The notes under the pieces are model-generated. The model was not told the origin of the DNA, ran no database searches, and saw nothing but the letters and a program-made list of their open reading frames with translations. DNA of 64,000 bases from Escherichia phage EP1, in the sequence record OR892555.1; one strand, given 5' to 3'. Numbering within the stretch: the stretch's first letter is position 1; each line of letters opens with the position of its first letter. Positions 43,196 to 50,356 of this stretch are shown here, piece by piece. The translations under genes and the position numbers were made by a program.

Positions 43196-43271
43196 TGGAG
43201 CGTCGAAAGGGAGTCGAACCCTCATAATCCTGTTTTGCAGACAGGTACATAGCCATTTCTGTCATCGACGC
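43196..43271 (-). tRNA. tRNA-Cys (anticodon GCA)
   Basis: Acceptor halves 43200-43206/43265-43271 pair; T-arm AAGGG-AGTCGAA-CCCTC (reverse-complement view); anticodon loop CUGCAAA; CCA encoded. Confidence 0.7.
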
Positions 43272-43277
43272 ATTAAT

Positions 43278-43369
43278 TGGAGGAAGATACCAGACTTGAA
43301 CTGGTACGCCGATTTCTCGGTTACTGACAGTTTAGCAAACTGTCCCCTTACCTTTAGGGTTAATCTTCC
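43278..43369 (-). tRNA. tRNA-Ser (anticodon GCU), long variable arm
   Basis: 92 nt; acceptor GGAAGAT/ATCTTCC; anticodon stem ACAGT/ACTGT with loop UUGCUAA. Confidence 0.7.
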
Positions 43370-43371
43370 AA

Positions 43372-44103
43372 TTATTTATTCAAGGCATCCTTCATTTCTG
43401 GAGTTGCAATTGAATCAATCACGCCAGATTTACAGGAATCATCAAACCAGTCTGGTAAGATACCTGCAAGGAAACCATTAATATTTGTTTTCAAGTAATC
43501 AGCAATCAAAGCCGCTTCATCTGCAATCATCTGAGCCACTTCATTAGCATAGGCAGTAATCTTTGCCATACCATCATTAATCGCTGTAACAGCTTGTGTA
43601 GCGAGGTCAGAGATGGTTGCTAGTCCTTTATCAATTGCATCCTGTAAGTCGCTTAGAACGCTGTTTACGGCATCTATAGAGGTATTAATCAAATCCATAG
43701 CCTTGTTACCGTATTCAGTAGCAACTCCCATGATTCCACTAAACGGTGTACAACCAACTTGTTCACCTGCTGCTCCCATAACATTAGAGTAACCTTTAGC
43801 TACTTGCATACGTTGTGAAAACTCATCTACAGACTTCTGTCCATATTGAGTCAGTGTGTTAGTTGTCGTTGTAGTGCTTCCAAGGCTAGTTGAGAAGCTA
43901 CTTAACAAGGCTGTAGTCAAACCAGCAGCAATAAGTTTATCTTTTACTGTAGGGTCTGATACCGAGCTAATAGAGCTTACTAATGAAGTAGAAGCGGCAA
44001 CTGTACCACCAAGAACTGCTGCACCAGTAATAAGAGGGTTAGAGAACCCGTTACCGGATTTAAGGAGACTGAAAATCTCTTTACCTTGTCCTGTCATCTC
44101 TTT
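43372..44103 (-). CDS. Ser/Thr/Ala-rich protein embedded in the tRNA array
   Basis: ORF trimmed to MKEMTGQ so it does not overlap the adjacent tRNA; low-complexity S/T-rich centre. Confidence 0.4.
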   Translation of the reverse strand, partial: KEMTGQGKEIFSLLKSGNGFSNPLITGAAVLGGTVAASTSLVSSISSVSDPTVKDKLIAAGLTTALLSSFSTSLGSTTTTTNTLTQYGQKSVDEFSQRMQVAKGYSNVMGAAGEQVGCTPFSGIMGVATEYGNKAMDLINTSIDAVNSVLSDLQDAIDKGLATISDLATQAVTAINDGMAKITAYANEVAQMIADEAALIADYLKTNINGFLAGILPDWFDDSCKSGVIDSIATPEMKDALNK

Positions 44104-44122
44104 CATTATGCACCTATAAAAT

Positions 44123-44199
44123 TGGTAGCCCATCGGGATTTGAACCCTGTTCTCATGTTTTTCAGACACGCGCTTTAACCATATAAGCTAATTGAGCTA
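44123..44199 (-). tRNA. tRNA, tentative Phe (anticodon GAA), atypical T-stem and acceptor/D-arm linker
   Basis: T-loop ATTTGAA with 3-bp GGG/CCC stem; anticodon loop CUGAAAA; acceptor TAGCTCA/TGGGCTA pairs with one G-U. Confidence 0.45.
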
Positions 44200-44206
44200 T
44201 TAAAAT

Positions 44207-44283
44207 TGGGGTGACCTACGGGAATCGAACCCGTATAGACCATGTTCACAGCATGGGTCATTATCCATTTATGATAAGGCCAC
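44207..44283 (-). tRNA. tRNA-His (anticodon GUG)
   Basis: T-arm ACGGG-AATCGAA-CCCGT; anticodon stem CCATG/CATGG with loop CUGUGAA; D-stem TCAT/ATGA. Confidence 0.7.
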
Positions 44284-44314
44284 ATGTAAGGACTCTCGTA
44301 AGAACCCTTAGAGG

Positions 44315-44390
44315 TGGCAGCAGCGTAAGGATTTGAACCTTAATCTTTCAGCTTCAGAGGCTGGAGCATTGCCAGTTATGCTACACTGCT
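44315..44390 (-). tRNA. tRNA-Gln (anticodon CUG)
   Basis: T-arm TAAGG-ATTTGAA-CCTTA; anticodon loop CUCUGAA; D-stem GCAT/ATGC. Confidence 0.65.
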
Positions 44391-44397
44391 ATTAATT

Positions 44398-44468
44398 TGG
44401 TACTCCATATCGGATTCGAACCGATACATAACACAGATTTTAAGTCTGGCCTCTCTGCCAATTGGAGT
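44398..44468 (-). tRNA. tRNA-like gene, anticodon loop reads UAA (Leu-type) but D-arm appears truncated
   Basis: Perfect T-arm ATCGG-ATTCGAA-CCGAT and 6-bp acceptor; only about 10 nt available for the D-arm. Confidence 0.4.
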
Positions 44469-44478
44469 AATGGAGCAT

Positions 44479-44554
44479 TGGCGGGGGATGTTGGAATTGA
44501 ACCAACTTCTTCGATTTCAAAGACCGAGGTTTTAACCTTGTAAACTAATCCCCT
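44479..44554 (-). tRNA. tRNA-Gln (anticodon UUG)
   Basis: T-arm GTTGG-AATTGAA-CCAAC; anticodon loop CUUUGAA; D-stem GTTT/AAAC. Confidence 0.6.
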
Positions 44555-44562
44555 TTAAATCT

Positions 44563-45120
44563 TTACTTTCTTAGTGGATGAATAAAGAATGCCAACATAA
44601 TTCTTTCCCTTGAGAATGCTCTTTCTTCTGGGACAACACTTTTAAGTTTCCATCCAACATAAATTCTCCAGTAAAACTGTTTACCAAAGACTTTAATTGA
44701 TGGGATAAAAGCGAATAATCCCCAAGCATTCCTATTCCACATCAGGAGATAACCTGTCTGATTATCTTCAGGGTTAGAACTTACGTTGATATTACCTTTC
44801 CACTTAGTAACATCTTTTACATCTCTTCCTAATACATGGTAAGAGAAGTTATAAGCTTTGTTTCTCCAGAGCCACCCAACTCTCTGCATATAAACACCAA
44901 GCTTACCAATCTTTCTAATCTTAGCCCATCGCTCAACGTGACCTTTGTCACCGTCAATTGGGTTATCATAAGTTTCCATCCATCTGAATCCAAAAGGTAG
45001 ATGGCCTTTCTTCTCACTGTAGAATGGAACAACAAAAGGTGCTAAGATTACTGCTAAGATTGCTGCAAATGGCTCTAGCAAAGCTAGGAAAATCCATGAA
45101 GCATACTTCAAATATCTCAT
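44563..45120 (-). CDS. membrane protein embedded in the tRNA array
   Basis: ORF trimmed to MRYLKYAS to avoid tRNA overlap; N-terminal TM segment ASWIFLALLEPFAAILAVILAPFVV. Confidence 0.4.
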   Translation of the reverse strand: MRYLKYASWIFLALLEPFAAILAVILAPFVVPFYSEKKGHLPFGFRWMETYDNPIDGDKGHVERWAKIRKIGKLGVYMQRVGWLWRNKAYNFSYHVLGRDVKDVTKWKGNINVSSNPEDNQTGYLLMWNRNAWGLFAFIPSIKVFGKQFYWRIYVGWKLKSVVPEERAFSRERIMLAFFIHPLRK

Positions 45121-45140
45121 TTTAAATAGCCTCTTTAAAT

Positions 45141-45216
45141 TGGTGCAGAATAAGGGATTCGAACCCCTATTAACAGCTTCGTAGACTGTTGCTCTATCCA
45201 TTTGAACTAATCCTGC
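45141..45216 (-). tRNA. tRNA-Arg (anticodon ACG)
   Basis: T-arm AAGGG-ATTCGAA-CCCCT; anticodon loop CUACGAA. Confidence 0.6.
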
Positions 45217-45330
45217 TTCCCTACGAGAACACCATACAGTTTTTCACAAACTTTGTTTTTACGTCTGTTTAGGTATGACGCTCTAAACTTTTTTGCGATG
45301 GAGTTATTGCTCATAGTGCTCTCCTCAAAT

Positions 45331-45408
45331 TGGTGTTCCAAGACGGATTCGAACCGTCACTAATACAAGGTTTGAGCTTGCATCCTCTGCCAATTGGGAT
45401 ACTGGAAC
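45331..45408 (-). tRNA. tRNA with anticodon CAA (Leu-type) but short variable region
   Basis: Well-formed cloverleaf in reverse complement (acceptor GTTCCAG/TTGGAAC, D-loop AATTGGCAG, T-loop TTCGAAT); anticodon loop CUCAAAC; 78 nt. Confidence 0.55.
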
Positions 45409-45410
45409 AT

Positions 45411-45485
45411 TGGTACTCGCTGAAGGAATTGAACCTTCTTTACCAACTTGTAAGGATGGGGCTTTACCGTATAAACTAAGCGAGT
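45411..45485 (-). tRNA. tRNA-Val (anticodon UAC)
   Basis: Acceptor ACTCGCT/AGCGAGT perfect; T-arm GAAGG-AATTGAA-CCTTC; anticodon loop CUUACAA. Confidence 0.65.
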
Positions 45486-45490
45486 ATGAA

Positions 45491-45578
45491 AAGAGGTCTG
45501 AAGTTGTGCCGCTAACTCAACTCCGTGGAATTTGTTACGGTCTTCAGTTGACTCAAGCGGTCTTTCACTCGACCTCTG
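45491..45578. ncRNA. structured element with acceptor-like terminal stem but no T-loop (candidate small RNA or degenerate tRNA)
   Basis: AGAGGTC (45492-45498) pairs with GACCTCT (45571-45577); internal hairpin CTGAAG...CTTCAG; fills a tRNA-sized gap in the array. Confidence 0.3.
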
Positions 45579-45581
45579 AAA

Positions 45582-45658
45582 TGGTGCTGCTCACAGGACT
45601 CGAACCTGCATTTCCATCCTTACAAGGGATGTGTAATAGCCAATTATACGAAAGCAGC
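45582..45658 (-). tRNA. tRNA-Thr (anticodon UGU)
   Basis: T-arm ACAGG-ACTCGAA-CCTGC; anticodon stem CATCC/GGATG with loop CUUGUAA. Confidence 0.7.
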
Positions 45659-45664
45659 ATTGTT

Positions 45665-45739
45665 TGGAGCATCCAGAGGGAATCGAACCCTCAACCTCAG
45701 TTTGGAAGACTGTAATTTTCCCGTTTAAACTATGGATGC
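45665..45739 (-). tRNA. tRNA-Gly (anticodon UCC)
   Basis: Acceptor GCATCCA/TGGATGC perfect; T-arm GAGGG-AATCGAA-CCCTC; anticodon loop CUUCCAA. Confidence 0.65.
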
Positions 45740-45745
45740 ACTAAT

Positions 45746-45821
45746 TGGTGGAGAAGCAGGGAATTGAACCCTGTACTTAAGTTTGCAAAACTTATGTTTT
45801 AACCATGTAAACTACATCCCC
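45746..45821 (-). tRNA. tRNA-Ala (anticodon UGC)
   Basis: T-arm CAGGG-AATTGAA-CCCTG; anticodon stem TAAGT/ACTTA with loop UUUGCAA. Confidence 0.65.
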
Positions 45822-45827
45822 AATGTT

Positions 45828-45903
45828 TGGTACAGGTGGAGGGAATTGAACCCATCATCTTACTGATTAAGAGTCAGCCGCATAACCATTTTGCTACACC
45901 TGC
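45828..45903 (-). tRNA. tRNA-Lys (anticodon CUU), tentative
   Basis: T-loop AATTGAA with GGG/CCC stem; anticodon loop CUCUUAA; acceptor ACAGGTG/CACCTGC. Confidence 0.55.
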
Positions 45904-45910
45904 ATTAATT

Positions 45911-45988
45911 TGGTAGGAGACAAGGGATTCGAACCCTCAAACACCAACTTCTAAGGATGGTAGGTTTACCAATTACCGTCAATCTCCC
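45911..45988 (-). tRNA. tRNA with anticodon UAG (Leu-type) but short variable region, structure partly unresolved
   Basis: T-arm AAGGG-ATTCGAA-CCCTC; acceptor with two G-U pairs; anticodon loop CUUAGAA; D-loop AATTGGTAA. Confidence 0.45.
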
Positions 45989-46052
45989 ATTAAATCTTTG
46001 TAGAGAACTGCTAAGACGCCAAAGCAACAATGGTATCAAATGCCTTAACAAT

Positions 46053-46080
46053 TCTCTAAAAAGACCTAACTGGTCTTTGC
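46053..46080 (-). terminator. hairpin, possible minus-strand terminator inside the tRNA array (weak)
   Basis: AAAGACC-taact-GGTCTTT stem followed by short U-run on the minus strand. Confidence 0.3.
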
Positions 46081-46229
46081 ATAGTCTTGTTTAATCCGGT
46101 GACTATAACCTTTGGAGAGCTTGATATTATCTCTTCTCCGTGACACCTACTAGGTGCTTTGTTGTGCGTGTACGACAATACACGAGGGAAACCGAACGCT
46201 GTACCAGAGCGTGGGCTTAAATCTCATTA

Positions 46230-46319
46230 GGCGGTAGATAAAGGAGTCGAACCCTCACCGTATCACTACAATGGCAATTGTTTTCAAGACAATTTGGCTT
46301 CCATTAGCCGCTATCTACC
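46230..46319 (-). tRNA. tRNA-Ser (anticodon UGA), long variable arm
   Basis: Acceptor GGTAGAT/ATCTACC; anticodon stem ATTGT/ACAAT with loop CUUGAAA; about 87 nt. Confidence 0.65.
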
Positions 46320-46332
46320 CCTAATAAGACTG

Positions 46333-46737
46333 TTAAACCTCTAACAGTCCTGCATGAACTTTCCTATGACAGTTAGAACACAGTACAACACATTTTCTAA
46401 CTTCTCTCTTAATAGTCCCTCTAGAGTAAGTCTTTAAATTGCTAGGTTCAAAGTCTTTTTCATTTGGGTCTAAATGGTGGAAGTCTAATGCTACTGGTTC
46501 AGATTCACCACAAACTCTGCATTTGCAGATTCTTTTGTATCGGTTAAGAAACTCTCTGTTTCTTTTTCTGTCAGCTACCGCCCTAATTTTCCTTTTAGCT
46601 TTATAAGTTGGGTCTTCTTGATACTTCTTAGAAGAGTATTTGGATTTGCAATCTTTGCATACTGACTGGTATCCATTACCACGCTTATGAAAACAACTTA
46701 AAGGTTTTTCTTGTGAGCATTTTCTACAAAGTTTCAT
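46333..46737 (-). CDS. HNH homing endonuclease inserted in the tRNA array
   Basis: Cys-rich zinc-binding N-terminus; HNH core DFHHLDPNEK ... CSNCHRKVH. Confidence 0.65.
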   Translation of the reverse strand: MKLCRKCSQEKPLSCFHKRGNGYQSVCKDCKSKYSSKKYQEDPTYKAKRKIRAVADRKRNREFLNRYKRICKCRVCGESEPVALDFHHLDPNEKDFEPSNLKTYSRGTIKREVRKCVVLCSNCHRKVHAGLLEV

Positions 46738-46751
46738 ACAAGTACCTATTC

Positions 46752-46822
46752 TGGCAGGGGTGTAGAGATTCGAACTCTAATCAAGAATTTTGGAGACTCT
46801 ATTGCTGCCTTAGCTCACCCCT
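46752..46822 (-). tRNA. tRNA-Trp (anticodon CCA), tentative
   Basis: Acceptor AGGGGTG/CACCCCT perfect; T-arm TAGAG-ATTCGAA-CTCTA; anticodon loop CUCCAAA; short D-arm. Confidence 0.6.
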
Positions 46823-46993
46823 ATTAACACTATAATTCGAAGCTTACCGTATTGTCACAACACTGTCAAGCCTCTTCTCAGATTATTTACATGTTCTGGA
46901 AAACATGAGATACAGACCACCTCCTTATGAAGTTGACTCATCTGAATCAACACGGAGACCCGCTAAGGTCGTCTAAGTAATCTGCTAACTAAT

Positions 46994-47070
46994 TGGCACA
47001 CCCTACAGGGCTCGAACCTGTAACTCAGTGCTTAGAAGGCACTTGCTCTATCCAATTGAACTAAGGGTGC
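46994..47070 (-). tRNA. tRNA-Arg (anticodon UCU)
   Basis: T-arm ACAGG-GCTCGAA-CCTGT; anticodon stem AGTGC/GCACT with loop CUUCUAA. Confidence 0.7.
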
Positions 47071-47320
47071 ATTCTTATCTTTAAAGGCTCTCTTAGAAAA
47101 CCCTTAAAGATGCCCACCTTATTAATCATACCGTGGGCGAGTACGCCAAATTCTTTGATGAGGGGTTGGAAGACCTCACTGGTGTTTAGCCTATTAAGCT
47201 ACTGCCAGAAAAACATTATCGTTTGCATTTATTTTAGTTTGCAAAAATAGACGCTACGCTAACGAAAACTAAGGTTACTATAAAGTGGTCACATCTGAAT
47301 GTCAACAACTTTATCGAATT

Positions 47321-47396
47321 TGGTAGTGGTAGCAGGAATCGAACCTGCGATGTTCGGTTATCAGCCGAGTGTTATGACCGTCTTAACTATACCACC
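47321..47396 (-). tRNA. tRNA-Ile (anticodon GAU)
   Basis: T-arm GCAGG-AATCGAA-CCTGC; anticodon loop CUGAUAA. Confidence 0.6.
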
Positions 47397-47398
47397 AT

Positions 47399-47475
47399 TG
47401 GAGGTTCAGATGGGATTCGAACCCACATTCATAGGGCTTATGAAACCCTTGCATTACCTTATCTGCGACTGAACC
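47399..47475 (-). tRNA. tRNA-Met (anticodon CAU), G-C-rich anticodon stem
   Basis: Acceptor GGTTCAG/CTGAACC perfect; T-arm ATGGG-ATTCGAA-CCCAC; anticodon stem AGGGC/ACCCT with loop UUCAUAA. Confidence 0.65.
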
Positions 47476-47554
47476 ATAATAAGTTGCCCTTTGGAGAAGA
47501 ACTATTGAGTGGGTGTTTCCAGCCGCGCAGGTGTTCTTCAGTTAAGGGCGAATT
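47476..47554. ncRNA. structured element with acceptor-like terminal stem but no T-loop (candidate small RNA)
   Basis: TTGCCCT (about 47484-47490) pairs with AGGGCGA (about 47544-47550); shares a TTCAGTT motif with the element at 45491. Confidence 0.25.
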
Positions 47555-47630
47555 TGGTAGGAGTGGAGGGATTCGAACCCGTCGCCTGTCAGATTAAAAG
47601 TCTGCCGCATCACCATTCTGCTACACTCCC
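47555..47630 (-). tRNA. tRNA-Lys (anticodon UUU)
   Basis: T-loop ATTCGAA with GGG/CCC stem; anticodon stem TCAGA/TCTGC with loop CUUUUAA. Confidence 0.65.
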
Positions 47631-47775
47631 ATTAAATCATCTTTGCAGTAACCTACGCAAACCTTGCTAAAGGGTTTGTAGAGTCATTTCCTATTAAGCT
47701 AATCTAGAATCATGCTAAGGAAATTCATCGGCACTCATGGGACGACATTTAGCTCCATAAGCCACTGCAAAGAGG

Positions 47776-47907
47776 ATTACCAGACCGTTGTTTTATCTTA
47801 AGTGCTCCCATTACACCAACACGCCGTAACGTGTGAAGGAATCGAACCTTCGCCTTTTCTTTACCAGAGAAATAGATTGTTTAATACTTGCTGTAAACGG
47901 TCTTCTG
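47776..47907 (-). ncRNA. tRNA-like RNA lacking a canonical acceptor stem, enclosed by a long-range stem (candidate Y-RNA-like or pseudo-tRNA)
   Basis: Minus strand reads AGACCGTT...[anticodon-like arm TTTCT-CTGGTAA-AGAAA][T-arm GAAGG-TTCGATT-CCTTC][hairpin ACACG-TTACGG-CGTGT]...AACGGTCT; ends pair over 8 bp. Confidence 0.4.
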
Positions 47908-47919
47908 TAAATTTGTTGA

Positions 47920-47993
47920 GCCAGACCAAGTTTTAAATTATTCAAATTAATTGGCTTGAAATTTTTAAGTTGGCTTGCTGAATTTGGTCTTCT
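47920..47993 (-). repeat. hairpin spacer module, copy B1 (CAGAAGACCAA ... TTGGTCTGG)
   Basis: AGACCAA (47922-47928) complementary to TTGGTCT (47983-47989); conserved flanks shared with copies at 47779, 48388, 48544. Confidence 0.5.
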
Positions 47994-48055
47994 GCTCCTT
48001 TAAAGAATACTCGTAAGAACTCTTTAAGGGATGGGCTAAAAAGCCCTCTCAAATT

Positions 48056-48133
48056 TGGCGGTTACGAAGGGATTCGAACCCTCATCATCTCCCGTGACAG
48101 GGGAGTATTTTAACCAGATTAAACTACATAACC
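48056..48133 (-). tRNA. tRNA-Asp (anticodon GUC)
   Basis: T-arm AAGGG-ATTCGAA-CCCTC; anticodon stem CTCCC/GGGAG with loop CUGUCAC. Confidence 0.7.
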
Positions 48134-48139
48134 TTTGTT

Positions 48140-48227
48140 TGGTGCGCCGTGAAGGAGTCGAACCTACCGAGTCATAATGACAAGTGATTTACAGTCACCA
48201 CCGCTTCCATCTACGGGATAACGACGC
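48140..48227 (-). tRNA. tRNA-Tyr (anticodon GUA), long variable arm
   Basis: 88 nt; T-arm GAAGG-AGTCGAA-CCTAC; anticodon loop CUGUAAA. Confidence 0.65.
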
Positions 48228-48297
48228 ATTTTATTCTATTCAGGCTAAGGACTTGCACCTTACAAATCGGTGAGCATTACGCTTCTCTCCCAAATCT

Positions 48298-48374
48298 TGG
48301 CGGTGAGTTAGGGATTCGAACCCTATACCATTCGGTTAACAGCCGACCGCACATGCCTTATGTGCTTCCTCACC
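48298..48374 (-). tRNA. tRNA-Asn (anticodon GUU)
   Basis: T-arm TAGGG-ATTCGAA-CCCTA; anticodon loop CUGUUAA. Confidence 0.7.
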
Positions 48375-48387
48375 ATGTTTAGTATTG

Positions 48388-48449
48388 CCAGACCGTATCT
48401 TTTCATTTTTTCCTATAAAAATTTTGAGATTGCTGTAAACGGTCTTCTG
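48388..48449 (-). repeat. hairpin spacer module, copy A2 (CAGAAGACCGT ... ACGGTCTGG)
   Basis: AGACCGT (48390-48396) complementary to ACGGTCT (48439-48445); lies between tRNA-Asn and the CAU tRNA. Confidence 0.5.
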
Positions 48450-48455
48450 CAAATT

Positions 48456-48532
48456 TGGAGGCGGGTGTTGGAGTCGAACCAACCGTTACCATGCTAATGA
48501 GACATGTGAGACACCCTTTCTCTATACCCGCG
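48456..48532 (-). tRNA. tRNA with anticodon CAU (Met, fMet or Ile-lysidine type)
   Basis: T-arm GTTGG-AGTCGAA-CCAAC; D-stem GAGA/TCTC; anticodon loop CUCAUUA; position 1-72 mismatched. Confidence 0.6.
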
Positions 48533-48543
48533 ATTCTTAATGA

Positions 48544-48607
48544 CCAGACCAAGTTTTATTTTCTATAAGCGAAGAAAGTTTTTTAACTTGCTGAATTTGG
48601 TCTTCTG
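48544..48607 (-). repeat. hairpin spacer module, copy B2 (CAGAAGACCAA ... TTGGTCTGG)
   Basis: AGACCAA (48546-48552) complementary to TTGGTCT (48597-48603). Confidence 0.5.
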
Positions 48608-48614
48608 TCAAATT

Positions 48615-48689
48615 TGGAGTCGTAGACGGGATTCGAACCCGCGAGCAACTGATTGAAGGTCAGGTGGCTAACCATTTGCCTTCTACGAC
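48615..48689 (-). tRNA. tRNA-Glu (anticodon UUC), tentative (C at position 33)
   Basis: Acceptor GTCGTAG/CTACGAC perfect; T-arm ACGGG-ATTCGAA-CCCGC; anticodon loop CCUUCAA. Confidence 0.55.
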
Positions 48690-48696
48690 ATTAATT

Positions 48697-48773
48697 TGGT
48701 CTCCGTTGAGGGAGTTGAACCCTCGACCCCTTGCTCCCAAAGCAAGTGCTCTGCCAAACTGAGCTAAACGGAA
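48697..48773 (-). tRNA. tRNA-Pro (anticodon UGG)
   Basis: T-arm GAGGG-AGTTGAA-CCCTC; anticodon stem CTTGC/GCAAG with loop UUUGGGA. Confidence 0.7.
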
Positions 48774-48940
48774 ATAATTCTTTTCAAACTCTATGTAACC
48801 ACTTTAACATTATTTTTTAGTGGTTGTCAAGAACTTTTTTAAAATATTTTTCAGTATCTTAGAAAAACTCTCGATTTCGTTTTTATGTAGAACATATTAA
48901 AGGGTATCAAACAATTTGTCAATACCCTTTTTAAAACTTT

Positions 48941-50356
48941 TTACCAGATGTAACGGTCAATCATTACTGCTTTGAGCATTACGCTGATTGGGTCAAACTT
49001 CTCACCACCAAGCAGAGCCTTTAAAGTGGCTGGAGAGAAACCTGATACCATCGCTACTCCGTTATCATTTACGGATACTTCGCAGTGACCATTACGGTTT
49101 GCTAAGTACCAGAATACCAGTTGTGGCATCTCATATCCAGCTTTTTCATACTTACTACGAATTACTTCGAAGTTTGTACGACCATTTGCCCCGTCAACCT
49201 GATTAAACTCCATATCAGAGAAGATAATAAGCTTACTTGGCATTGCTGCCTGAGTCAAGTTATTTCTTACACCAATTTCAAGAATACGGTCAAATGCTGC
49301 TTGTAGGTTTGTAGAACCATACTCAACATGACTCATAATCTGACGATGACGATTCTGTAAAGTGCCACTCAGGGTGATAAAGTGAGGTCTGTCTGAGTAA
49401 ATCATTAACTCGTCTTTAAAACAACCTGTATTGCGTTCTGAGACGTATAACGCCAGAGACACACCAATATCAAGAGCGGTTACTGAACCAAATGTTTCCC
49501 AAGTCATAGAGCATGATACATCTGTCATACAAAGGATGTTTTCACCATCAGCCATCCAGTTTGGTAGTGCTTTCCACTGTTCATTAGCAACTTGTGCTTT
49601 ACCACGCTGAACAGATTTAAGAACATCATAAGGGTATACAGCACCAGCATTAATCTTCGTCTCGCCCTTAGATAGAGCTTCAACGTAAGCTGCATAACGT
49701 TCACCATCTTTCTTACTGAACAGTTTTTGATAACGTGCAGCAGCCAGTGAAGGAATCTTACTGTAGTCAATCTCGCCAAAGTTATTTGTAGAGATTTTCT
49801 GTTCAACGGTGTCAGATAAAGCTGACAGCAGTGTACGGTACTCTTTCTCACTCAAGTTTGCAAATTTACAGAAACGTTTTACAAACTGCTTGTGGCGTGG
49901 TTTTACTCGTGGTAACCACTTAGCTGCTAAACATGCTGTATCAGGGTCTAACAAAGCTTCTTCTAAATGCTTGAAAGCATCTGTCTCATAACGAGTACCT
50001 ACGAAGATTTTGAAGTCATCGAAACGACCTAATTCAGAAATCTTATCCATGATACGAAGAACTTGGAAAGAATCCAGAATGTTATCTTCGATTGCTTGTA
50101 AGAGGACAGTTCGGAAAGCTTTACGCTCACCCATACCTTCTCGTACATCTCGCATATGCAGTAAAATACGAACTGCTACATCAACATCCTCACGCAAAGC
50201 TTTGTAGAACAAGTCTGGGAGAATCTCTACATTGTTACGGCTTGAACCAGCAGCTTTGTAGAAGTCTACCAAGGCAGACATTGATGATGTATGGTTAACA
50301 GCACCATTTTCAGTTCGCCCTGCATTGAGGTGCGAATGCTTAAATAAATCGCTCAT
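48941..50356 (-). CDS. Ro60-like protein: helical TROVE-like N-terminal region plus C-terminal vWA domain with MIDAS motif
   Basis: C-terminal MTDVSCSMTWE (DxSxS) ... GSTNLQAAF ... LVFWYLANRNGHCEVSVNDNGVAMVSGFS parallels the Ro60 vWA domain; 471 aa; directly upstream of the tRNA array on the same strand. Confidence 0.6.
   Translation of the reverse strand: MSDLFKHSHLNAGRTENGAVNHTSSMSALVDFYKAAGSSRNNVEILPDLFYKALREDVDVAVRILLHMRDVREGMGERKAFRTVLLQAIEDNILDSFQVLRIMDKISELGRFDDFKIFVGTRYETDAFKHLEEALLDPDTACLAAKWLPRVKPRHKQFVKRFCKFANLSEKEYRTLLSALSDTVEQKISTNNFGEIDYSKIPSLAAARYQKLFSKKDGERYAAYVEALSKGETKINAGAVYPYDVLKSVQRGKAQVANEQWKALPNWMADGENILCMTDVSCSMTWETFGSVTALDIGVSLALYVSERNTGCFKDELMIYSDRPHFITLSGTLQNRHRQIMSHVEYGSTNLQAAFDRILEIGVRNNLTQAAMPSKLIIFSDMEFNQVDGANGRTNFEVIRSKYEKAGYEMPQLVFWYLANRNGHCEVSVNDNGVAMVSGFSPATLKALLGGEKFDPISVMLKAVMIDRYIW

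What the first reader, a model, noticed from the sequence alone, without database searches (positions are those of the whole stretch)
47776..47907. tRNA-like RNA lacking an acceptor stem, enclosed by an 8-bp long-range stem
On the minus strand there is a canonical T-arm (GAAGG-TTCGATT-CCTTC) and an anticodon-like arm (TTTCT-CUGGUAA-AGAAA), but no sequence able to form the acceptor stem. Instead the T-arm is followed by a hairpin (ACACG-TTACGG-CGTGT), and the whole unit is bracketed by complementary AGACCGTT / AACGGTCT segments about 105 nt apart. A tRNA-like domain attached to a basal stem made from the 5' and 3' ends is the architecture of bacterial YrlA-type Y RNAs, and the element lies 1 kb from the Ro60-like gene.
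Basis: partly seen in the sequence, partly recalled or inferred. Interest (0 to 1): 0.8.

Follow-up and report, generated by a model that had tools for sequence, protein, structure and literature searches.

The report
Phage Y-RNA-like tRNA mimic family
The element is a real, conserved non-coding RNA: a tRNA look-alike with its acceptor end closed into a hairpin. It is one of four related RNAs encoded just downstream of a phage protein with the Ro60 fold, which points to a previously undescribed phage version of the Ro60/Y-RNA particle.

Summary
The hairpin after the T arm is the acceptor-stem analogue, closed by a loop. The "anticodon-like arm" sits where the YrlA variable (V) stem-loop sits. 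The order V–T–AS–D inside a terminal stem is the YrlA layout.

The closing stem belongs to a module, CAGAAGACC-N3-U-W-CAGCAA…GGUCUGG, that occurs four times in tandem (E1–E4, 47774–48613). Only E4 carries the tRNA-like insert.

A covariance model built only from E4 orthologues found relatives beside distant DUF2828 genes (~40% identity). After one iteration there were 79 hits, 78 on the gene strand. They lay in 39 of 65 loci, and in 34 loci within 500 nt of the gene. Covariation is strong.

The YrlA sequence motif GNCGAAN0-1G is absent and no Rfam family matches. I conclude this is a new variant of the Ro60/Y-RNA kind. RNA–protein binding and function are inferred, not shown.

The parts
47774..47913 (-). 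E4: full YrlA-like RNA (the finding). It consists of a basal stem module plus V, T, AS and D stem-loops.
   Evidence: Models R1 and R2 hit it at 168.7 and 131.8 bits (these hits are by construction). Orthologues are aligned.
47907..47910 (-). E4 lower helix, 5' strand UUAC. It pairs with 47777-47780.
   Evidence: 100% of cells pair across 28 distinct E1-E4 paralogues and orthologues. 3 of the 4 pairs show changes on both sides.
47904..47906 (-). Invariant AGA, forming an internal loop opposite G47781.
   Evidence: Invariant in all 28 sequences of alignment A6.
47896..47903 (-). E4 upper helix, 5' strand AGACCGUU.
   Evidence: 7 of the 8 pairs are kept across paralogues; pairs 6 and 7 covary (GC/AU and AU/UA). 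Family-wide, the core helix is 98.7% paired.
47888..47895 (-). UACAGCAA, the conserved unpaired 5'-strand motif. Proposed protein-recognition element.
   Evidence: A UWCAGCAA-like motif is present in 73 of 79 family hits; 63 have exact CAGCAA.
47856..47872 (-).
   Evidence: The loop is 6 or 7 nt in orthologues, and Moogle-type phages have a different sequence here. The position matches the YrlA V arm.
47835..47851 (-). T arm GAAGG-UUCGAUU-CCUUC.
   Evidence: Family-wide this helix is 97.2% paired and all 5 pairs covary.
47819..47834 (-). AS hairpin ACACG-UUACGG-CGUGU: the acceptor-stem analogue, closed by a loop.
   Evidence: Three fully compensated versions exist in orthologues: ACACG/CGUGU, ACUCG/CGAGU and ACCCUUC/GAAGGGU. 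Family-wide it is 97.3% paired.
47802..47816 (-). D arm GUGU-AAUGGGA-GCAC, preceded by U-G at the positions of tRNA nucleotides 8 and 9.
   Evidence: Invariant in orthologues. Family-wide it is 94.5% paired. Relatives show the canonical UAGCUCAGUGGUAGAGC.
47782..47789 (-). E4 upper helix, 3' strand AACGGUCU.
47777..47781 (-). Unpaired G47781 plus the lower helix 3' strand GUAA.
47915..48000 (-). E3: short paralogue (YrlB-like) with the same stem module and no tRNA-like insert.
   Evidence: the repeat finder family D8. R2 hit at 38.5 bits, E = 5e-5.
48382..48455 (-). E2: short paralogue that fills the spacer between tRNA-Met and tRNA-Asn.
   Evidence: R1 hit at 51.2 bits.
48538..48613 (-). E1: short paralogue that fills the spacer between tRNA-Glu and tRNA-Met.
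   Evidence: R1 hit at 44.3 bits.
48941..50356 (-). Gene for a 471-aa protein with the Ro60 fold (Pfam DUF2828 + DUF7788). It is the orthologue of Bas63 gp130.
48894..48922 (-). Sigma-70-like promoter, TTGACA-17-TAATAT, between the Ro60-like gene and the tRNA/Y-like RNA cluster.
   Evidence: This is a consensus match only.
48801..48830 (-). Second sigma-70-like promoter, TTGACA-18-TAAAGT with an upstream TG.
   Evidence: This is a consensus match only.

Best explanation
E4 is a YrlA-like non-coding RNA: a circularly permuted tRNA-like domain inserted into the loop of a conserved stem module.

The domain runs in the order variable arm, T arm, loop-closed acceptor stem, D arm. The stem module has four parts:
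- a covarying lower helix;
- an invariant AGA/G internal loop;
- an AGACC/GGUCU helix;
- an unpaired UACAGCAA motif.

The module occurs four times in tandem (E1-E4) downstream of a gene for a Ro60-fold ring protein of the DUF2828 family.

Proposed mechanism (inferred):
1. The RNAs are co-transcribed with the phage tRNA cluster from the promoters at 48.8-48.9 kb.
2. Processing of the flanking tRNAs at their 5' and 3' ends releases them. E1 and E2 occupy almost the whole inter-tRNA spacers.
3. The Ro60-like protein binds the shared stem/UWCAGCAA module, as Ro60 binds the conserved helix of Y RNAs.
4. The short RNAs (E1-E3) act like YrlB-type partners that occupy or gate the ring.
5. The tRNA-shaped head of E4 serves as a handle for a tRNA-recognising factor, such as a modification or processing enzyme, a nuclease or an exoribonuclease. 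This would link the particle to tRNA or RNA surveillance, or to counter-defence during infection.

Shown here: the anatomy, conservation and covariation, the paralogy, the Ro60 fold of the neighbouring protein, and the family-wide linkage of RNA and gene.

Inferred: transcription and processing, RNA-protein binding, and biological role.
For: Anatomy:
- Searches show the motifs and the fold.
- Four paralogous modules appear.

Covariation within the Felixounavirus group:
- The module's helices are 93.5% paired, against 79.6% in shuffles and 21-45% in slid controls.
- The lower helix is 100% paired, with 3 of 4 pairs compensated.
- The AS hairpin has three fully compensated versions.

Protein:
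- The model has pLDDT 91.9.
- The Foldseek top 11 hits are all Ro60 (E = 7e-9 to 2e-7).
- The MIDAS residues D279, S281 and S283 are invariant.

Family-wide linkage:
- Model R1 was built only from E4 orthologues. It hit distant DUF2828 loci at E = 7e-10 and 9e-10.
- Iterated model R2 gave 79 hits at E <= 0.1, 78 of them on the gene strand.
- The hits lie in 39 of 65 distant loci. In 34 loci a hit is within 500 nt of the gene, often 14-55 nt from it.
- Only the four expected hits occur in the 64-kb window, despite its more than 24 tRNAs.
- A 148-kb phage contig repeats the layout: gene, then tandem Y-like RNAs, then tRNA cluster.

Family covariation: 88.7-93.7% of cells pair, against 58-63% in shuffles. 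25-26 of 26 pairs show changes on both sides.

Literature:
- YrlA layout and Ro60 linkage (PMC4201824).
- Bas63 gp130 is Ro60-like, counters the ppl defence, and its authors guessed that Y RNAs hide among the tRNAs.
- gp130 is 89% identical to the window protein, and Bas63 has all four RNAs.
Against: - There is no expression, processing or binding data.
- The single-sequence fold is not exceptional (z = -1.04).
- The YrlA 5' motif GNCGAAN0-1G is absent. The only GGCGAAG string lies at the V/T junction and is not conserved.
- The protein does not hit Pfam TROVE. Its profile barely sees Ro60 by sequence (E = 0.24).
- gp130 alone, from a plasmid or inserted in T7, restores plaquing on ppl cells. 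The RNAs are therefore not needed for that activity.
- Phage SP116 has lost the 3' half of E4, so E4 is dispensable at least in culture.
- 25 of 65 distant loci gave no hit.
- Alignments A4 and A5 are fitted to the model, and the model's E-values are rough.
- A few long hits may be tandem-tRNA artefacts.
- The Levitt pair (15:48) is not supported: A15 stays constant while position 48 varies between C and A.
Confidence: 0.75

Rival explanations
1. E4 is a decaying tRNA pseudogene in a phage tRNA cluster. Its stems are leftovers without function.
For: - The Rfam tRNA model hits it at 30.6 bits.
- It lies inside a cluster of more than 24 tRNAs.
- The cluster holds other degenerate tRNAs, such as the Tyr-like one at 22.8 bits.
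- SP116 shows recombination between E4 and a tRNA at the T loop.
Against: - The element is kept in 245 of 251 related phage records.
- The AS hairpin changes are compensatory.
- The D arm lies 3' of the T arm, in permuted order, which decay does not produce.
- The closing stem is an invariant module shared with three non-tRNA paralogues.
- The same architecture recurs beside DUF2828 genes in unrelated phages, including loci without any tRNA.
Confidence: 0.05
2. E1-E4 are structural or processing elements of the tRNA operon, or cis-regulatory UTR elements of the DUF2828 mRNA in other phages. Examples would be RNase recognition hairpins or spacers that insulate tRNA folding. They would act in cis rather than as stable Y-like RNAs in a particle.
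For: - E1 and E2 fill inter-tRNA spacers exactly and begin right after CCA-AAUUUG.
- In many distant loci a single short copy lies 14-55 nt from the start or stop of the DUF2828 gene. That placement fits a UTR operator.
- gp130 works without the RNAs against ppl.
Against: - The unpaired UWCAGCAA motif and the AG...CUG helix ends are conserved across phages. The loops are free to vary, or to carry a full tRNA-like domain.
- A cis processing site has no need for a T/AS/D domain with tRNA-invariant nucleotides.
- Y RNAs of canonical Ro60 are likewise encoded next to the gene on the same strand, so proximity does not discriminate between the two readings.
Confidence: 0.13
3. The long forms are permuted tRNA genes. 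RNase P and 3' processing would open them at the AS loop to give a two-piece tRNA-like molecule ending in CCA. That molecule could be aminoacylated or recognised as a tRNA, and this would be the real function, independent of the Ro60-like protein.
For: - Many relatives have a 7-bp AS stem followed by an encoded NCCA (L012, L016, L050, L074, L067).
- L040 shows the unpermuted topology: tRNA-model hits of 56.9 and 40.9 bits, with the motif inside the anticodon loop.
- M. smegmatis YrlA is cleaved by RNase P and receives CCA.
Against: - The window's E4 has only a 5-6-bp AS stem, closed by a short loop without CCA. The FelixO1-type version also lacks CCA.
- No member has an anticodon loop. The anticodon-stem position runs into the conserved stem module.
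- The short paralogues share the module without any tRNA part.
Confidence: 0.05

Closest known systems
YrlA (Y RNA-like A) of Salmonella, Mycobacterium and mycobacteriophages (Chen et al. 2014, PMC4201824)
   Same: - The 5' and 3' sequences form a stem.
- The internal tRNA-like domain runs V, T, AS (acceptor analogue closed by a loop), D.
- The T loop is UUCGAUU and the D loop carries GG.
- It is encoded within about 1 kb of a Ro60-fold gene on the same strand.
- It occurs alongside shorter paralogues.
- Some relatives have a 7-bp AS stem, as M. smegmatis YrlA does.
   Different: - It lacks the 5' GNCGAAN0-1G motif and has UWCAGCAA with an AG...CUG helix instead.
- The partner protein belongs to DUF2828/DUF7788, not Pfam TROVE.
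- It is embedded in a tRNA cluster.
- CCA is encoded in many relatives rather than added.
- No Rfam model matches.
YrlB, and Yrl1/Yrl2 of Thermus phage phiLo (PMC12135203)
   Same: E1-E3 are short stem-bulge-loop RNAs without a full tRNA domain. They are encoded in tandem next to a phage Ro60-fold gene.
   Different: The phiLo RNAs carry the CGAA motif, lie upstream of a bona fide TROVE protein, and have been shown to bind it and PNPase. Nothing has been shown for E1-E3.
Bas63 gp130 (PhageMaP preprint, 10.1101/2024.10.10.617714)
   Same: The window protein is 89% identical to gp130. The preprint notes its structural similarity to Ro60 and speculates that some annotated tRNAs are Y RNAs.
   Different: The preprint identifies no RNA. 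The RNAs found here are not among the annotated tRNAs. They lie in unannotated spacers and under two reverse-strand 'hypothetical' CDS, bas63_0137 and bas63_0138.
Circularly permuted tRNA genes and two-piece (permuted) tmRNA
   Same: The 3' half (T arm, acceptor 3' strand, often NCCA) precedes the 5' half (acceptor 5' strand, D arm), and a loop joins them.
   Different: There is no anticodon loop and no mRNA-like part. The anticodon-stem side continues into a conserved protein-binding-type stem.

Membership tests
YrlA-type bacterial/phage Y RNA | Encoded within 4 kb of the Ro60 gene and on the same strand | tested here: met
   E4 lies 1.03 kb downstream of the Ro60-fold gene on the same strand. 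In 34 of 65 distant loci a family member lies within 500 nt of the gene on the same strand.
YrlA-type bacterial/phage Y RNA | The partner protein is a TROVE-domain Ro60 orthologue | tested here: inconclusive
YrlA-type bacterial/phage Y RNA | GNCGAAN0-1G motif near the 5' end | tested here: not met
   The 5' strand reads CAGAAGACCGUUUACAGCAAG. The only GGCGAAG string lies at the V/T junction and becomes GGAGAAG or GAGAGAAG in orthologues.
YrlA-type bacterial/phage Y RNA | Stem-loops in the order V, T, AS, D, with tRNA-like T and D loops, enclosed by a stem made from the 5' and 3' sequences | tested here: met
   The helices are 94-99% paired and covary family-wide.
YrlA-type bacterial/phage Y RNA | Levitt pair 15:48 kept by compensatory change | tested here: not met
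   A15 is constant while position 48 is C or A in orthologues.
YrlA-type bacterial/phage Y RNA | Bound by Ro60 in vivo; carries pseudouridine 55 and dihydrouridine | not testable with these tools
   This needs immunoprecipitation and modification mapping.
tRNA (Rfam RF00005) | Scores above the gathering threshold | tested here: met
   30.6 bits against 29, so the margin is small.
tRNA (Rfam RF00005) | Seven-pair acceptor stem formed by the 5' and 3' ends, and a D arm 5' of the anticodon arm | tested here: not met
   3 of 7 acceptor pairs are non-standard and the D arm is reduced to 6 nt in the model alignment. ARAGORN makes no call. The real D arm lies 3' of the T arm.
Ro60 protein family (neighbouring gene) | HEAT-repeat ring plus a von Willebrand A domain with a MIDAS motif | tested here: met
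   Full-length structural matches to 1yvp, 2i91, 9l5y and 2nvo. The DxSxS residues D279, S281 and S283 are invariant in 106 homologues.
Circularly permuted tRNA gene | Yields a tRNA with an anticodon loop after processing | tested here: not met
   No anticodon loop is present. The anticodon-stem side leads into the stem module.

The most novel reading that the evidence does not exclude
DUF2828/DUF7788 proteins and this UWCAGCAA-stem RNA family form a widespread, phage-specific sister system to Ro60/Y RNA. In it, the permuted tRNA modules that encode NCCA are opened by RNase P and 3' processing. The product is a two-piece tRNA mimic ending in CCA, held on a Ro60-like ring. The particle acts in counter-defence or tRNA surveillance, for example as a decoy or adaptor for tRNA-directed host nucleases, or in the gp130/ppl conflict.
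Probability: 0.25. Interest if true: 0.85.

Novelty: new variant of a known kind. Interest (0 to 1): 0.75.

Why it matters
Ro60/Y-RNA particles are conserved from bacteria to humans, but their partners and roles in bacteria and phages are poorly understood.

This locus links a large protein family to a concrete, testable set of RNA partners. The family has more than 3000 homologues and is annotated only as DUF2828 or 'RNA-binding protein'. Those RNAs have a recognition motif different from that of canonical Y RNAs.

The orthologue in the model phage Bas63 already has a counter-defence phenotype. The RNAs can therefore be deleted, mutated and pulled down directly. Such experiments would ask two questions: whether phage tRNA mimics cooperate with a Ro60-like ring, and what the tRNA-like head recruits.

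The result also corrects annotation. In public records these RNAs are unannotated, or are covered by spurious reverse-strand ORFs.

Tried and rejected
- **Structure prediction from a single sequence.** It gave an unusable model (pLDDT 43). I repeated it with a 106-sequence alignment.
- **Sequence searches of the protein against PDB.** They gave nothing convincing, either with the single sequence or with the profile (E = 0.24). Only fold comparison showed the Ro60 relationship.
- **Exact-motif search in distant loci.** A regex for GAAGACC...GGTCTGG found one chance hit. 7-mer counts were confounded by coding bias. Covariance models were needed.
- **Rfam.** No family other than tRNA and tmRNA matched in the window or in 11 related loci.
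- **Direct comparison with bona fide YrlA sequences.** The Chen 2014 supplement is not held, so this was not possible.
- **An anticodon-stem analogue in E4.** I looked at AUCU/AGAU. It does not vary in Felix-type phages and is not clearly kept in Moogle-type phages, so I left it out of the structure.
- **Terminator or operator readings of the stem.** I rejected both. The arms are 58-130 nt apart with variable inserts, and no U-tract follows on the minus strand.
- **Literature.** I found no prior description of these RNAs. The Felix O1 genome paper leaves the 428-nt Asp-Lys gap unannotated.

Full report
**Context.** The window comes from a Felixounavirus/Suspvirus-like myovirus. The 425-nt tRNA-Asp to tRNA-Lys spacer that holds the finding (47631-48055) is 99.5% identical to Salmonella phage PC79-13 and 97% to Escherichia phage SUSP2. 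The finding lies inside a minus-strand tRNA cluster, 43196-48773. ARAGORN tRNAs there, and Rfam adds a few more.

**Observation.**
- T arm at 47851-47835.
- UUUCU-CUGGUAA-AGAAA hairpin at 47872-47856.
- ACACG-UUACGG-CGUGU hairpin at 47834-47819.
- The 8-bp pairing AGACCGUU (47903-47896) with AACGGUCU (47789-47782).

ARAGORN calls no tRNA here. The Rfam tRNA model reaches 30.6 bits against a gathering score of 29. It does so only by accepting three non-standard acceptor pairs and deleting the D arm.

RNAfold recovers the four hairpins inside the long-range stem. The energy is unremarkable for this composition (z = -1.04), so one sequence alone proves nothing.

- A D arm follows the post-T hairpin: U-G, then GUGU-AAUGGGA-GCAC, at 47816-47802. 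It has A14, G18/G19 and A21 equivalents.
- The order is therefore V hairpin, T arm, loop-closed acceptor analogue (AS), D arm. This is a tRNA permuted at the anticodon side.
- It is exactly the layout that Chen et al. 2014 describe for YrlA (PMC4201824).

**The closing stem is a repeated module.** On the minus strand the module reads CAGAAGACC-N3-U-W-CAGCAA ... GGUCUGG. It occurs four times:

| Copy | Coordinates | Note |
|---|---|---|
| E1 | 48613-48538 | short |
| E2 | 48455-48382 | short |
| E3 | 48000-47915 | short |
| E4 | 47913-47774 | the finding; only copy with the tRNA-like insert |

E1 and E2 fill the spacers between tRNA-Glu and tRNA-Met, and between tRNA-Met and tRNA-Asn.

**Covariation in the module.** I took the two arms of every distinct paralogue and orthologue from 16 related phages and joined them with an artificial AAAA linker. 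This made an ungapped alignment that is not fitted to any model.
- A 4-bp lower helix is 100% paired, with three covarying pairs: UGAC/GUCA, UUGC/GCAA, UUAC/GUAA and GAGC/GCUC.
- An AGA/G internal loop is invariant.
- The AGACC/GGUCU helix is invariant. Two further pairs covary, GC with AU and AU with UA.
- Overall 93.5% of cells pair, against 79.6% in shuffles and 21-45% when the partner columns are slid.

**E4 orthologues.** They fall into three types. The AS hairpins are fully compensated: ACACG/CGUGU, ACUCG/CGAGU and ACCCUUC/GAAGGGU. The last type is followed by GCCA. The T and D arms do not change.

The V loop has 6 or 7 nt, and Moogle-type phages have a different sequence there. It is therefore not an anticodon arm. 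Indels that are not multiples of three argue against the small overlapping ORFs.

**The neighbouring gene.** ORF 48941-50356 (471 aa) hits Pfam DUF2828 and DUF7788 and PHROG 850, 'RNA-binding protein'. It does not hit TROVE.
- A model built with a 106-sequence alignment has pLDDT 91.9.
- The Foldseek top 11 PDB hits are all Ro60/TROVE structures.
- The MIDAS residues D279, S281 and S283 are invariant.

**Family-wide test.** I fetched 80 viral contigs that encode relatives of the protein. Fifteen are Felix-like and 65 share about 40% identity.

Model R1 was built only from E4 orthologues. It found hits in the distant loci at E = 7e-10 and 9e-10. These hits carry the same UWCAGCAA motif, a T arm, an AS hairpin and a D arm.

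Results after one iteration (R2):
- 79 hits at E <= 0.1, 78 of them on the strand of the gene.
- The hits lie in 39 of 65 distant loci. In 34 loci a hit is within 500 nt of the gene, often 14-55 nt from its start or stop.
- The 64-kb window gave only the four expected hits, although it holds more than 24 tRNAs.

A separately fetched 148-kb contig repeats the layout: gene, promoter, tandem Y-like RNAs, then 19 tRNAs.

The family core is AG-N5-6-U-W-CAGCAA ... N5-6-CUG, and 73 of 79 hits have the motif. Members are either short (60-100 nt) or long, with the T/AS/D domain. In the long forms the AS stem is usually 7 bp, and at least eight of them encode NCCA right after it.

On the model-fitted alignments 88.7-93.7% of cells pair, against 58-63% in shuffles and 33-48% in slid controls. 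25-26 of the 26 pairs show changes on both sides. Because the alignments are fitted to the model, these numbers lean towards the structure. The independent test is.

**Known or new.** Rfam 15 has no matching family, in the window or in 11 related loci.

The PhageMaP preprint reports that Bas63 gp130 resembles Ro60 and counters the ppl defence. [quoted passage not shown]

Bas63 has all four RNAs, but they are not annotated as tRNAs. They lie in unannotated spacers and under two reverse-strand hypothetical CDS. The Felix O1 genome paper leaves the same gap unannotated. I found no description of these RNAs in the held literature.

**Mechanism.** The best-supported reading is a phage Ro60/Y-RNA-like particle.
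- The ring protein binds the shared stem/UWCAGCAA module.
- E1-E3 are YrlB-like partners.
- E4 adds a tRNA-shaped handle for a tRNA-recognising factor.
- Biogenesis by tRNA-end processing follows from the positions of E1 and E2. Two sigma-70-like promoters lie upstream.

All of this is inference.

Points against:
- gp130 alone rescues T7 on ppl cells.
- SP116 has lost half of E4.
- The YrlA 5' motif is absent.
- The Levitt pair is not supported.

**Verdict.**
- Strict YrlA membership is not met.

This is a new variant of a known kind, and it is directly testable in Bas63.

Noticed in passing
window 47641-47772 (-): A 132-nt conserved element lies directly after E4. A 12-16-bp stem closes it: CUUUGCAGUGGC/GUUACUGCAAAG here, and CUUUGUAGAUAAG/CUUAUCUACAAAG in Felix-type phages, a compensatory difference. 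An internal hairpin displays a conserved UUWAGCAAG loop, so AGCAA appears again. RNAalifold predicts 25 pairs, 6 of them with changes on both sides. Rfam has no hit. This may be a fifth partner RNA. An earlier count gave these coordinates 5 nt too low.
   Followed up: partly
L009 7456-7620 (Salmonella phage SP116): The 5' half of E4 is fused at the T loop to the 3' end of a tRNA. This deletes the 3' half of E4, the downstream element and part of tRNA-Lys. It is a natural deletion, which suggests these RNAs are dispensable in culture.
   Followed up: partly
L040 6895-7137: Two tRNA-model hits (56.9 and 40.9 bits) carry a 52-55-nt insert in the anticodon loop. The insert holds the family motif, CAAACUGAYAAGUUUGUAUUCAGCA. 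This is the unpermuted topology of the same RNA. In a tandem array, both the permuted and the unpermuted folds are possible.
   Followed up: partly
L082 22748-23022 (Bas63 MZ501086 82748-83022): The reverse-strand CDS bas63_0137 and bas63_0138 are annotated over E4 and the downstream element. They are probably spurious ORFs.
   Followed up: no
window 48145-48225 (-): A degenerate tRNA-Tyr-like sequence with anticodon GUA and a long variable arm. It scores 22.8 bits, below the gathering score. Felix O1 lists it as 'Pseudo (Tyr)'.
   Followed up: partly
window 48618-48689 (-) and 46755-46822 (-): Two Rfam tRNA hits (53.7 and 32.6 bits) that ARAGORN does not call. By position the first corresponds to the tRNA-Glu annotated in Bas63. 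The second is weak and was not examined.
   Followed up: no
window 46333-46737 (-): An HNH endonuclease ORF (phrog_2255, E = 3e-45) sits inside the tRNA cluster.
   Followed up: no
L016-L075 (distant DUF2828 loci): 22 of these 60 loci have tRNA or tmRNA genes within 5 kb, all on the strand of the DUF2828 gene. They include phage tmRNAs (L050, L059, L062, L072) and suppressor-like tRNAs with anticodon CUA (L050, L067).
   Followed up: no
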